From: Octopus vulgaris
Lineage: Eukaryota
Direction: 5' to 3'
Assembly (NCBI GenBank): GCA_951406725.2
Contig: OX597822.1
Coordinates: forward strand, 80,910,001 to 80,974,000
Length of the DNA: 64,000 nucleotides
This document shows positions 29,140 to 60,780 of the stretch, in pieces; the stretch's first letter is position 1, and each line of letters starts with the position of its first letter. Both the position numbers and the translations under genes were made by a program. The notes beneath the pieces were generated by a model. It saw only the letters and a list, made by a program, of their open reading frames with translations, did no database searches and was not told the DNA's origin.

Positions 29140-29597
29140 ATATTGAATTTTTCACCCCTTATTATATTAAATTTAAATTTATTGGCTATGTTCTCTAACC
29201 GGCAATATTCACTGCAGAGAATTATTTTCTGCAGAATTATTTCTGGTGGTTTAGGAGCGCTAAATCGAAGACTTTTGAAAGATGACCAAACTTATAATTG
29301 GTAGAAGTGTCTAAATGTTCAATCTCATGCGGACGTCTCGTGTATAGTTCTGCAAATTATTTTTGCAAAGATGATCACACTGATAATTTGCGGACAATTA
29401 CGTAAATGATTACGTAAGCGATAACAAGGAAACCTGGTTTATGATTAATCTGTAGTTTGTATTTTTTCGTTTGTCTTCTTCGCTTACGTTCTGGCGTTTG
29501 CTAAATTTTCTTGAGAACATTCCTTTCTTAGTGGTAAGACCATAGCGGATCTTCTTCTAGCATAATGGATGTCCACTTACAGGTCATCCCTCTTATA
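29140..29597 (+). mobile_element. ~450-nt HHR-bearing non-coding element (long-stem-II family), degraded ribozyme at 29373-29446
   Basis: atcaca-CTGATAA-tttg...ttacgta/tacgtaa...caag-GAAA-cctgg-TT-tatgat; colinear with 29700-30146 and 60360-60780; ends in (TA)n. Confidence 0.7.
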
Positions 29598-29699
29598 TAT
29601 ATATATATATATATATATATATATATATATACACATACACACACATATATATATATATATATATGTATGTATGTATATATATATATATAAAATTTAATT

Positions 29700-30146
29700 G
29701 ATTAATATCAATTTCTACCCTTATTTAATTTTATATAAAAAAATGTTCTCTAGCCGGTAAATTAACTGGTGCAGTTTCTTAACCTCAGCGCGCCAAAGTG
29801 AAGGCATTTGAAGGATACACATAAATATAATTTGTAGGACTTTATGCATGCTGGATTTCGGTCGAGCGCCCTGTATCTACTTCTGGAAATTGTATTTCGT
29901 AAAACTCAGACTACGCCGATGATCTTGCAGATTTTTACGTATCCATATACGTAAATATTAACAAGTGAAACTAATTAGTACGTAGGTAATGTTTTTTTAT
30001 TTTCGTATATTTTGATTTGTCTTATTTTTAAACTTTGGTTTTTGCTGAATTTTGTGTTTGAGAACACATTCTTCGTGGTAAATGACGAGTTTGACGTCTA
30101 TATCTAGCATACAGGCTGTCCACTATTAGTGGTCATTCCTCTTAAT
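29700..30146 (+). mobile_element. ~450-nt HHR-bearing non-coding element; ribozyme at 29911-29985
   Basis: ctacg-CCGATGA-tcttg...tttacgta(tcca ta)tacgtaaa...caagt-GAAA-ctaattag-TA-cgtag; flanked by (TA)n. Confidence 0.8.
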
Positions 30147-30329
30147 TTTGTGTATATATATATATATATATATATATATATATATATATAAACATACACT
30201 GAATTATCTTAGAACAACTAAATGACGAAAATTTGTACAAAAAATTAGGAACTAAAGCAGATTAACAGACAGTGAGTAAAATTAGTAAATTGATGTGCAT
30301 ATTAAAAATTGGATTAACCCAAACATCTA

Positions 30330-30655
30330 GAGATAGAATTAAGTAACATATATCGACTCCCAGATGTCGATAAGTATTAGTGAAAAAAATCGGCAAGGGC
30401 TTCAAGGATTTCCATCCATCATTTATGAAAATTCCTAAACCATCTGATTGAAAATGATGTCCTATTATTTGAAGGCCAACATCTAGCACTCAGCGATTAA
30501 GCGATGTGTTAGACATAATTTTAATCTCTTATGCAGATCGGTTCTTTCTTTCCTCAGGGATGACATGGAATTCCTAAACAATATTCCTGAAAGAGTAGAT
30601 AAAGAGACGATCGTGGTTAGTTCCGACGAGACCAAACTCTGCAGAAATATCGTCT
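30330..30655 (+). pseudogene. Penelope-like RT fragment
   Basis: IYRLP..KIPKPSD..PII..PTSSTQRLSDVLDIIL..LRDDMEFLNNIPERVDKETIVVSSD, homologous to the 25.3-25.6 kb RT segment. Confidence 0.75.
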
Positions 30656-30849
30656 ATTGGGGATATTAAAATTGTTTTATATATACCCATATATACACAC
30701 ACACATGCATATACAGTTATACATCGTCATATTGCCGTTCACCTATCGCGTTTCACCTATCACGGTTCACCTATCGAGGTTTATTATTTAAGTCTTCGCC
30801 GATTCTTCCGTGGTGTTGTTTTGCATTTATAATATATATATATATATCT

Positions 30850-57300: not shown

Positions 57301-57397
57301 TCTAACTTGATTTGCAGAAGAAATCAGTAGTGCCGAGTCTGATAACAGCTGAGGTTTCGACGGCGACCGACAGAAACTGATAGTATTCCTATCCTCT

Positions 57398-57798
57398 AAG
57401 GCGGCGAGCTGGCAGAAACGTTAACACGCCGGGCGAAATGCGTAGACGTATTTCGTCTGCCGTTACGTTCTGAGTTCAAATTCCACCGAGATCGACCTTG
57501 CCTTCCATCCTTTCGGGGTCGATTAAATAACTACCAGTTACGCACTGGGGTCGATATAATCGACTTAATCTGTTTATCTATCCTTGTTTGTCTTCCCTGT
57601 GTTTAGCCCCTTGTGGGTAGTAAAGAAATAATTATTTCGTCTCTCTTTACGTTCTGAGTTCAAATTTCACCGAGGTCGACTTTGCCTTTCATCCTGTCGG
57701 GGTCGATAAATTATGTACCAGTTGCGTACAGGGGTCGTTCTAACCGACCGGTCCGCTCACCAAAAACTTCGGCCCTTGTGCCTAGAGTAAAAATGAAT
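57398..57798 (+). mobile_element. SINE family B dimer with ~14-bp TSD
   Basis: tattcct(a/g)tcctct flanks both ends. Confidence 0.88.
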
Positions 57799-59105
57799 AT
57801 TCCTGTCCTCTGCGATACTGGATATGCGGCTAATGCAGCAAAGTTGGCGCTGGTGTCAAAGCACGGCGCGTCCCAGATTAGGCATTTGCCTCCTTCGTAC
57901 AGAAGAGGGTTATTCCGTCAGGGCGCTTAACATCCCCGTGATTAAGACCTCATATGACCCTTCTAATTCATTGGCCGAATTCCTTGACAACTGCTCCACA
58001 TTTGCATATAATTATTATCTTTAGTGGCATATTTTGTGGAATCCTTATCCAATTACTTTCTGCCTGCAAAGTTTACTCATAATGTATTGGGTTCGCTCGG
58101 AGGTGCATCAGAAAATAATTGTATATGATGTCCGCGACTTTCTTAACCAAGCATCTAAACTACTAAATTCGTCCGTAATTATAAAAACACCTCCTCCAAA
58201 TCACAACTGTCTGCTTAAAAAGATGTATGGAGATATTAATTATTGTATTTGCGATTTATTTTTAAAATATCGTAGGTCTACTCGACCAGGGTTAATATGA
58301 AGCTCAACAAAAGGGAAATCAAGAATGAGACAACTGACATCACCAAAACCATATCAAACCACTTACTTTTATGCATATATTAGCTTCAAATTTTAGCACA
58401 AGGCTAGTAATCTGGGAGGAGGAGATTGGATGATTCCACTGACCCCATTCCTCAGCTGGTAGTTTTTGTATTAACCCCGAAGAGATTAAAAGCAGACTCG
58501 ACTTCAGCAACATTTGAACTCAAAACATAAATTCAGAAATGTTGCTATGCATTTTTCCCGAGGCTGTAACAATCCTGCCAACTCGCCGCCTTTTCTTCTA
58601 CAAATATTGTAGTTAGGATGTTGCACTCTAAATTGCCAGGCAGCAGTTTCAATTCCTGGAGCAAGCAATGCGTTGTGCCACTGAACTAACAGTTCATCTC
58701 ACGTTACTCTCTGACCACTTCGACAGTTGGTGTATGGTACACCGTGCACCTGTTCATGCAATGTTGATCTAATATTGAATGAATGAGTATAATGTACAGC
58801 ACATACGTTTGAACACAACGGCAATTTCAGCTCAGCTGCTCCTTATTTTTATCGACTCCGCAACTATAAATGGGAAAGTCATCATCGGTGGAATTTGACG
58901 CCAGAACGTAAAGACGGACGAAATATCACTTAGCATTTTACCCGGCGGGCTAAAGAATGTCAGCTCAACTTATACATATATACACGCTGCATACATAAAT
59001 GCATGTATACATACATACACACATACATACATGCATGCATACACACATACATACATACATACATACATACATACATACATACATACATACATACATACAT
59101 ATATG

Positions 59106-59748
59106 CAGGGTGATTGAAAAGTAACTCCCAATTTTAAAATACTTATAATTTATTTATTAACTATAATTTTATTTAAATTTTAATATAGGCATCAGCATTC
59201 ACCACCAGCTTCTGAAGCCGCCTGGGAACCACATCAACTGATTTCATCAGGAAGTTTTATGGAATGAAAGACATAACTTCAAGTTCTTCCAAAGTCATTG
59301 GTTTGGTAGAGAAGACTTCCTCCTTTAACCAACCCCAAAGAAAACAGTTAAAGGGTGTTAAATCAGGGCTTCTGGCCAGCCAGTCATGCGGACCTTGATG
59401 AATTGGAAGGACGACCACTTCAAGTATCTGGTACAAATCCCGTAGTCATGAATTTTGCATGGCAAATCTTGATTATCTTTGCATCAACTTGAGTATGTCT
59501 TCCACTGGTCCTCCACCTTCTTTGCACTTGAACAACTGATCTCCAACTTCGTAATGTGCAACTAGCTGGGCATTATCCTGCACAGTAAAACATCCAGCCA
59601 TGTTTGTAGGGCTTCTAACTTTCAAAAAAAATAAACAATCTGAGAAAAAAACAACATGGAATCAATTCCCATAAAGAACATACACAACATATTTGAGAAA
59701 ACAATATTATAAGCATTTTAAAATAGGGATTTACTTTAAATCACCCTG
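59106..59748 (-). mobile_element. Internally deleted Tc1/mariner element with both TIRs
   Basis: TIRs cagggtgattgaaaagtaactcccaattttaaaatacttataat / attataagcattttaaaatagggatttactttaaatcaccctg; minus frame WLARSPDLTPFNCFLWGWLKEEVF. Confidence 0.85.
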
Positions 59749-60359
59749 TGTATATATATATATATATATATATATATATATATATATACATACATACATA
59801 TATATATATATATATATATATATATATATATATATATATATATATATATATATATATATAACATACATACATATACATACATACATACATACATACATAC
59901 ATATACATACATACAAATATATATACATATATATATGTACCTATATTTATATATCTTCTCTCTCTCTCTCTCTATATATATATATATATATATATATATA
60001 TATATATATATATATATAAGGCAAATAAAAATTGGTGCAGATAATCAATAGACAAACATCAGTCTGTAAACATTCATTTAGATCTATTTATTAATTAATT
60101 ATAATCATATGTATAAGTAATAAAAAAAAATATAATCGATATTTTTAGATTGATTATCTTCTCCATTTTCTCCCTGCCTTATAAATTCTGGGTAAATTTT
60201 TGTTTACCCCCACTGATACCTATTATTCAATTGTGTTCTTGCCATGTAGCAGTAAGCATTTGGATATAAATACGTAGGTATACATCCACTAGTATATTGG
60301 GTATTTATTTTCCCTTAGATGGTTGTTTACCTTCTAACTCATATATATATATGTATATA

Positions 60360-60780
60360 ATATAATTATGTTCTTTAATAGGCAACGTTAACTGCTGTAC
60401 ATTATTTTCTGCAGAATTTGTTTCCGGAATTTAGCACGCCAGAACACAGACATTTGAAATTAACCCCAATGTAAACGGTAGAACTAAGCACGTGTCTGGT
60501 TTTATACAGAAAACTGGTAGTTAGTTTTACAAATTATATTGTTTTTGGAACGATCGTACTGATGAATCTACGGACGAAGGATTACGTAAGTAATTTATTC
60601 GGTAATAGACGAAACCAGTATACGATTAATTCTTGATTTTTATATAATTTTCATCTGTCTTGCCAGCCTATATTCTGGTGTTCGCTGAATTTTCTCTAGA
60701 GAACATTTTTTCTTTGTAGTTTGATCGTATGTGATCTATTTCTAGCATATGGCTGTCCACATTGTGGTTTTTAGCCCTAA
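60360..60780 (+). mobile_element. HHR-bearing non-coding element (long-stem-II family); ribozyme at 60552-60627
   Basis: atcgta-CTGATGA-atcta...tagac-GAAA-ccag-TA-tacgat; colinear with the 29.1 and 29.7 kb copies. Confidence 0.8.

What the first reader, a model, noticed from the sequence alone, without database searches (positions are those of the whole stretch)
29140..60780. Diverged family of ~500-nt HHR elements with long stem II and covarying stems (5 loci in 64 kb)
Seen: elements at 29140-29597, 29700-30146, 30850-31584, 44778-45617 and 60360-60780 share ordered blocks (caccct-att..aattat; (t)ggcgcg..catttgaa; HHR; taatctgta..tttgt; gtggt.aa.c..tctag..g.cca..ctctt), not every block in every copy. 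Their ribozyme stems differ in sequence yet stay paired. Stem I: ctacg/cgtag, ttttgg/ccaaaa, atttctta/taagaaat, atcgta/tacgat. Stem II: cttg/caag, gcta/tagc, atctg/cagat, tcta/taga. Stem III is (near-)palindromic: ctaattag, caattg, cggtatatcg. Inference: structure, not sequence, is conserved, so cleavage was under selection across subfamilies. Palindromic stem III suggests dimeric HHR activity. The 40-65-nt stem II extension is unlike the minimal PLE HHRs elsewhere in the window. This may be an undescribed, very abundant cephalopod retrozyme-like family.
Basis: partly seen in the sequence, partly recalled or inferred. Interest (0 to 1): 0.8.

Follow-up and report, generated by a model that had tools for sequence, protein, structure and literature searches.

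The report
Ribozyme repeat family with paired starts
Five non-coding repeats in this window, likely from an octopus, belong to one many-copy family with a predicted self-cutting hammerhead RNA; its insertions sit in TA repeats as two back-to-back arms that nearly always end at two different fixed points, which is likely the footprint of a borrowed Penelope-type retrotransposon enzyme copying one RNA, probably a circle, and makes this a new member of a known class (retrozymes).

Summary
Observation largely confirmed. The five loci are homologous 490-545-nt non-coding units with a type I hammerhead. Four loci have a near-intact core; the 29140 copy is decayed. Stems covary within and between subfamilies. 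Two subfamilies are young, with at least 876 and 2,134 exact ribozyme copies, many in tandem arrays. Copies end at one of two fixed points (A, B; about 105-125 nt apart) next to (TA)n. In 50 of 51 resolved two-armed insertions one arm ends at A and the other at B. Units and arms of one insertion share one haplotype. Both ends lie on a covarying RNA domain. This is the Penelope (PLE) 'tail' footprint, so the family is best filed as a non-LTR retrozyme (non-autonomous PLE), a known class. Palindromic stem III is the usual metazoan trait, and long stem II also occurs in other families of this genome. No autonomous partner sharing its ends was found, in an incomplete search. Cleavage, circles and transcription are untested. 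This scan already noted similar families, paired ends and a docking fold on other DNA.

The parts
29140..29597 (+). Subfamily S1, old single-arm copy; decayed hammerhead (core 29380-29386, predicted cut after 29439); ends at point A before (TA)n
   Evidence: relatives 84-88% identical
29700..30150 (+). Subfamily S2, old copy; hammerhead core 29916-29922, predicted cut after 29980; ends at point A
30860..31291 (-). Subfamily S3 (534-nt unit, young), left arm with whole hammerhead (core 31088-31082, predicted cut between 31019 and 31018); ends at point A
31292..31584 (+). S3 right arm, head-to-head with the left arm; carries the end domain and ends at point B before (TA)n
44765..44778 (-). S4 inverted mini-arm ending at point A; has the same one-base length variant as the main arm
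   Evidence: read by eye
44778..45617 (+). Subfamily S4 (492-493-nt unit, young), 1.7 tandem units; hammerhead cores 44801 and 45294, predicted cuts after 44891 and 45384; ends at point B
45194..45215 (+). GC box plus TTTGAA block, 84 nt upstream of the core; candidate promoter, also paired in the RNA (like blocks at 29254-29279, 29788-29812, 31186-31212 minus, 60434-60458)
45445..45617 (+). End domain: outer helix, CTAG/CTAG helix (45473 with 45560), hairpin A inside, hairpin B after; both insertion ends lie on it
60360..60785 (+). Subfamily S5 (544-nt unit), older single-arm copy; core 60559-60565, predicted cut after 60620; ends at point A

Best explanation
This is a family of non-coding, hammerhead-bearing mobile units that lie in (TA)n as tandem arrays with two fixed ends, and it is likely copied by the reverse transcriptase-endonuclease of a Penelope-like element from a predicted self-cut, probably circular, one-unit RNA. 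Proposed cycle: (1) a tandem copy is transcribed, likely from the GC-box/TTTGAA block 84-109 nt upstream of the ribozyme (inferred); (2) successive hammerheads cut out a monomer that a host ligase closes (inferred from other retrozymes); (3) a dimeric PLE protein binds the covarying end domain, nicks both strands of a (TA)n target and primes one cDNA at point A and one at point B on the same RNA (ends and pairing shown, enzyme inferred); (4) each cDNA runs round the template for 0.1-13 units, and the two join head-to-head (layout shown, rolling inferred).
For: Tandem units run from ribozyme to ribozyme: 492, 534 and 544 nt. Longest ATG frame in any monomer is 18-66 aa. Two fixed 3' ends next to (TA)n with free 5' ends. 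Of 75 S3/S4 insertion records, 56 are two-armed; 51 have both ends resolved, and 50 of these pair A with B (p about 2e-14 against a 50:50 choice). In S5, 8 of 8 resolved among 13 two-armed copies pair A with B (by eye). Units differ by 0.22-0.29% within an arm, 0.24-0.32% between arms and 1.3-2.5% between insertions; 186 site-by-insertion variants are fixed in all units, 108 of them across both arms, against 12 partial and 96 single-unit ones. Covariation: 96% of cells paired and 11 of 44 pairs with double changes in 13 S4-lineage sequences, against 26-47% paired when slid; the helix beside CTAG/CTAG is paired at 116 of 148 positions in 37 distinct types against 89 in shuffles, 0 of 20,000 as high. 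Circular folds z -3.9 to -8.4. Two internal start sites, cleavage and extension of both strands and a predicted dimer are reported for a Poseidon PLE (PMC11167929); a tail on one inverted repeat is the PLE signature (PMC3846280). Intact (TA)n-ending PLEs exist in this genome.
Against: No autonomous element sharing the end domain was found among 60 PLE loci, so the mover is unidentified. The tail here is 105-125 nt, against 30-40 nt in described PLEs and about 31 nt in PLE-A of this genome. A shared haplotype shows a one-unit bottleneck, not a circle; repeated jumping on a linear monomer or transcription of a young uniform array would look alike. 12 sites vary in part of an array, some between arms, so a few insertions used more than one template or a multimer. 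In PMC11167929 ribozyme mutants did not affect insertion in vitro, and Li 2026 saw cleavage in only 1 of 9 Xenopus elements. Arrays were partly picked for length. The covariation controls do not remove relatedness, and some structures were drawn from these same sequences.
Confidence: 0.72

Rival explanations
1. The units are pseudo-LTRs of an autonomous PLE not yet found, copied from linear transcripts; arrays come from repeated template jumps, and the ribozyme is a passenger.
For: PLE footprint; Xenopus retrozymes are kin of pLTRs (bioRxiv 10.64898/2026.07.22.740005); ribozyme not needed for insertion in vitro; partner search covered only Neptune-like families.
Against: tblastn of all family loci fetched up to one search found PLE coding sequence directly joined to only one unit (L282), and that join lies inside the coding region of PLE-B. 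Arrays of up to 13 units have intact ribozyme junctions and one haplotype. At least seven lineages keep the ribozyme, the end domain and a long-range helix across the cut site.
Confidence: 0.16
2. Single units are inserted by a PLE and then expand locally as satellites by unequal crossing-over, the model discussed by Li et al. 2026.
For: Uniform arrays are expected from recent local expansion; one hammerhead per unit then follows trivially.
Against: Both inverted arms are often multi-unit, have unrelated lengths (Spearman 0.07, n=50) and share private variants; arms stop at the two fixed ends; young, 99%-identical insertions are already arrays at many sites.
Confidence: 0.07
3. The five loci are unrelated hammerhead repeats that converge on short AT-rich blocks.
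For: S4 against S2 and S5 is weak by BLAST (E 0.03-1.4; z 3.6 and 5.0).
Against: Blocks are collinear; the same multi-helix end domain and the same A/B rule hold in S3, S4 and S5; S6 shares blocks with both S4 and the others.
Confidence: 0.04

Closest known systems
Metazoan non-LTR retrozymes (Cervera and de la Pena 2020, PMC7229834, parts 2-4 of 6 read; Li, Clavereau and Pollet 2026, bioRxiv 10.64898/2026.07.22.740005, parts 1-3 of 5 read; supplements not seen)
   Same: Non-coding tandem repeats with one type I hammerhead per unit, GC under 50%, no LTR/PBS/PPT seen, strongly folded monomer, short palindromic helix III, PLEs in the same genome.
   Different: Units of 460-545 nt (170-400 nt in the 2020 paper, but inside the 51-972 bp range of the 2026 one); stem II extended by a 2x2 loop and a second helix; (TA)n targeting, inverted arms and paired ends are not described in the parts read; circles not shown here.
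Insertions of EN+ Penelope-like elements: Poseidon PAc (PMC11167929, parts 1-2 of 4 read), Adineta Pen2a (PMC3846280, passages), Neptune and Hydra clades (PMC8557442, passages and section 11)
   Same: Two internal start points, tail on one of two inverted repeats, head-to-head layout, variable 5' ends, AT-rich or (TA)n targets, hammerhead upstream of the start points.
   Different: No ORF; tail 105-125 nt; arms of many units; the two ends are paired in 50 of 51 cases and lie on a covarying multi-helix domain.
Axolotl HHR_Amex1/2 and newt satellite hammerheads (PMC7229834, part 3)
   Same: One- or two-pair helix III with a palindromic tetraloop (S1, S5, S3); U-U mismatch at the base of helix II (S2), as in Amex2.
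   Different: Much longer helix II region; S2 and S4 have a longer helix III that could close in a monomer.

Membership tests
Non-LTR retrozyme | Type I hammerhead in each repeat unit | tested here: met
   decayed in some old copies such as 29140
Non-LTR retrozyme | Tandem arrangement, at least two units with complete ribozymes | tested here: met
   44801/45294 in the window; arms up to 12.7 units
Non-LTR retrozyme | Non-coding and dispersed in many copies | tested here: met
   longest ATG frame 18-66 aa; counts
Non-LTR retrozyme | Self-cleavage | not testable with these tools
   core and stems conserved; no assay
Non-LTR retrozyme | Expressed as linear and circular monomer RNA | not testable with these tools
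   only assembled contigs were offered; haplotype pattern is indirect
Non-autonomous PLE derivative | PLE insertion footprint: two fixed 3' ends, inverted 5'-truncated arm, tail on one arm | tested here: met
Non-autonomous PLE derivative | Sequence kinship with the pLTR of an autonomous PLE | tested here: inconclusive
   none with three Neptune-like families in 60 loci; other clades not queried
Autonomous PLE | RT plus GIY-YIG ORF between the repeats | tested here: not met
Minimal PLE hammerhead (PMC4209133) | No helix III, short helix I, helix II of 7-8 bp | tested here: not met
   helix I 4-8 bp, palindromic helix III, 42-68 nt in the stem II region
Rfam hammerhead families | Score at or above the gathering threshold | tested here: not met
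   0 matches in 6 loci; none among the 150 of 264 window matches shown

The most novel reading that the evidence does not exclude
The end domain is a docking platform with a palindromic CTAG/CTAG core that places the two subunits of a PLE reverse transcriptase dimer on one circular RNA, so each insertion records twin rolling-circle reverse transcription from two set points; and the unit carries its own E2F/CHR-type polymerase II promoter that times it to dividing or germ cells. This would show how animal retrozymes move and what the PLE tail is.
Probability: 0.3. Interest if true: 0.72.

Novelty: new member of a known kind. Interest (0 to 1): 0.44.

Why it matters
How animal retrozymes are moved, and whether circles are the template, is proposed but not shown. 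This family has young, near-identical arrays, a near-strict rule that pairs the two ends, and a covarying RNA domain that holds both start points. These give concrete substrates and mutations for an in vitro test with a PLE protein. The family itself is one more member of a known class, and the scan has met several like it in this genome.

Tried and rejected
Partner search: PLE-A (775-aa RT-EN frame, 4,271-bp tandem unit), PLE-B (781 aa) and a third family (L176, L182) show no blastn or profile match to the unit beyond one short inserted piece; 30 loci were fetched from each of two searches with 10,077 and 6,136 candidates. L282 looked like a unit-ORF fusion, but the join lies inside PLE-B coding sequence. 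An RVT_1 search fetched no loci and was not followed up; one Pfam family was not in the library. Hydra, Nematis, Poseidon and Naiad clades were not queried. Expression: no RNA holder listed (14 holders only guessed as RNA). Contigs of such runs cover S3 and S4, and the RT fragment between S2 and S3 is without cover; contigs cannot show ends, circles or level, so this is not used. One S3 contig carries what I recall as a cDNA template-switch adapter, and some contigs of run X10 show runs of A-to-G. Editing imprint: array-wide variants are 23 A>G against 7 T>C (p 3e-4), but single-unit variants lean the same way (Fisher p 0.40), so it does not separate the stages. A MAFFT alignment of all subfamilies misaligned the 3' stems, so anchored tables were used: stem I 28 of 28 pairs, 2 of 5,040 permutations as high; stem II 17 of 21, 8 of 5,040; these stems were partly how the loci were chosen. 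Promoter idea: TTTGAA lies 84-109 nt upstream of the core in 6 of 6 subfamilies (0 of 2,000 shuffles above 4), but the block also pairs with a stretch downstream of the cut in S1-S3, so RNA structure is a rival reason; 6 of 15 loci picked by that pattern were unrelated. Target-site duplications cannot be read inside (TA)n. Not in print: searches found no paper on octopus retrozymes; unseen supplements of PMC7229834 and the 2026 preprint, and Repbase or Dfam, may list them.
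Full report
Check of the observation. A type I hammerhead descriptor finds exact cores at 29916, 31088 (minus strand), 44801, 45294 and 60559, and 0-1 hits in each of 10 shuffles. 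The copy at 29140 has a decayed core. I call the five loci S1 (29140), S2 (29700), S3 (30850), S4 (44778) and S5 (60360). Monomers taken from tandem copies or, for S1 and S2, from consensus are 541, 533, 534, 492 and 544 nt, and all 10 pairs align above shuffles, z 3.6-35. S4 is the most distant. Rfam has no match at its threshold in 6 loci.

Host and abundance. The genome holds 2.80 Gb. S3 and S4 are young, with top hits 99% identical; S1, S2 and S5 are older, 82-95%. Exact motif counts: 876 S4 and 2,134 S3 ribozyme ends against 0 for reversed controls, 3,424 copies of the block before end B against 7, 4,927 GC-box/TTTGAA pairs against 189. Eighty evenly placed 10-kb stretches hold 6-9 family loci, about 20,000-30,000 genome-wide, so this window is enriched about 7-10-fold. 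More subfamilies turned up: S6, S7 and S4 relatives at 72-93%.

The ribozyme. Core and helix I are kept while the letters change: 28 of 28 pairs in seven representatives, and within S2 one pair is C-G in 10 copies, U-A in 10, U-G in 2 and C-A in 2. In 13 S4-lineage sequences 96% of cells pair and 11 of 44 pairs show double changes, against 26-47% pairing for slid partners; cells count related sequences, so this is not a probability. The long stem II is a 4-5-bp helix, a 2x2 loop with AA on the 3' side and a further helix (predicted so for S2, S3 and S5; S1 by inspection), that is, a normal helix II whose loop is closed by an extra hairpin. Other families of this genome have equally long ones: 14 of 27 hits in 800 kb, 3 of them from this family. 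Helix III is palindromic throughout, which is the described trait of metazoan type I hammerheads that cut as dimers.

The ends. Each subfamily has two fixed 3' ends beside (TA)n: A, 130-175 nt after the cut site, and B, 235-290 nt after it; 5' ends are free. After merging 135 loci into 73 stretches there were 37 S4 and 38 S3 insertion records. Fifty-six are two head-to-head arms, 18 single-arm and 1 complex. Five two-armed records have an end cut off or unassigned; of the other 51, 50 pair A with B and one pairs B with B (p about 2e-14). Four of the 18 single-arm records, the window's S4 copy among them, show a tiny inverted arm by eye. Arm lengths are unrelated and reach 6.8 kb. The loci were top-identity hits or arrays that I partly chose for length; the first S4 query contained end B and the first S3 query end A. 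PLE literature describes a tail on one of two inverted repeats and traces it to two internal start sites, with both target strands cut and extended and a predicted dimer. The family follows that rule with a longer tail.

One template per insertion. Units differ by 0.22% (S4) and 0.29% (S3) within arms, 0.32% and 0.24% between arms, and 1.29% and 2.45% between insertions. At sites covered by three or more units, 186 variants are fixed across the insertion (108 across both arms), 96 are in one unit and 12 are partial. Linear copying can only shorten an array, so some step multiplies one unit: rolling round a circle is the simplest, as proposed for retrozymes, but repeated jumping on a linear monomer is not excluded. 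The partial sites show that some insertions used more than one template or a multimer.

The end domain. The CTAG before hairpin A pairs with the CTAG before hairpin B, and the four pairs inside it covary: 116 of 148 in 37 distinct types against 89 in shuffles, none of 20,000 as high (the 72 rows include a few stray or rearranged ones, which were kept). An outer helix (GTGGT/GCCAC, GTAGT/GCTAC, GCGGT/GCCGC) stacks on it. Free folding recovers both helices in S1, S2, S4 and S5, the outer one with a shifted inner one in S3, and only the inner one in S6; RNAalifold finds the inner helix in the S4 lineage. End A follows a GG...CC hairpin inside the junction and end B follows a second one just outside. 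I infer that this is the protein docking site that couples the two starts.

A candidate promoter. TTTGAA lies 84-109 nt upstream of the core in 6 of 6 subfamilies, behind a GC box. I recall TTTGAA as the CHR element and the GC box as E2F-like; one search lists papers that hold these terms, and passages of PMC3093354 describe a conserved hybrid E2F/LIN-54 motif. The block also pairs with a stretch downstream of the cut in S1-S3, but persists in S4, where that partner is missing. This is a lead, about 35% likely.

The mover. The window holds a decayed PLE at 24057-26900 whose family has intact, tandem, (TA)n-ending copies; a second intact family was found by its nuclease. Both have the cysteine linker that PMC8557442 ties to microsatellite targeting in Neptune elements; I built no tree. 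Neither shares the unit or the end domain. The partner remains open.

Verdict. A real, well-conserved family and a new member of the non-LTR retrozymes. Literature searches found no description of it; supplements, Repbase and Dfam were not seen. Earlier notes of this scan report similar families, two fixed ends, arms that share a variant and a docking fold on other DNA, and none with look-alike sequence to S4 or with the promoter reading. What this locus set adds is the count of paired ends, the covarying helix that joins the two start sites and the promoter lead. Interest 0.44.

Noticed in passing
window 24057-26900, minus strand; L156-L159: Decayed Neptune-like PLE with its own hammerhead (26893-26867). 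Its young relatives form 4,271-bp tandem units with a 454-aa frame overlapping the 775-aa RT-EN frame; a few copies have a single 1,199-aa frame, which hints at a frameshift or two-ORF layout.
   Followed up: partly
window 30212-30657: Old PLE reverse transcriptase fragment, 29-35% identical to PLE-A, lying between the S2 and S3 copies.
   Followed up: partly
window 40063(+), 44579(+), 62523(-)/62531(+): Further hammerheads of other families with shorter stem II; the last two form an inverted pair.
   Followed up: no
L217, L227, L259, L266(-), L214, L261, L235: At least four other long-stem-II hammerhead families, ending about 40-160 nt after the cut site, mostly at (TA)n, without the CTAG domain.
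   Followed up: partly
L176, L182 and L165, L167, L172, downstream of the ORF: Autonomous PLE repeats carry repeated promoter-like motifs (names recalled): E2F-like sites, CCAAT and E-boxes in one family, CCAAT plus CRE-like sites and TATA in another. PLE-B has only a degenerate hammerhead-like core.
   Followed up: no
L311 (unit position 352), L319 (304), L362 (246): Variants that recur in several but not all units of an arm, in one case alternating; may mark a two-unit template or an error hot spot.
   Followed up: no
L282:1-1500 / L361: An S6 copy is joined at end B, with no TA run, to a 5'-truncated PLE-B copy inside its coding region.
   Followed up: yes
run X10 laid on window 45340-45425: Contigs with dense A-to-G changes on the ribozyme strand, as expected from editing of the long hairpins that two-armed insertions would form; no matching DNA run.
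   Followed up: no
window 7887-8340 and more than ten other places: A very abundant short repeat, also often in direct and inverted pieces.
   Followed up: no
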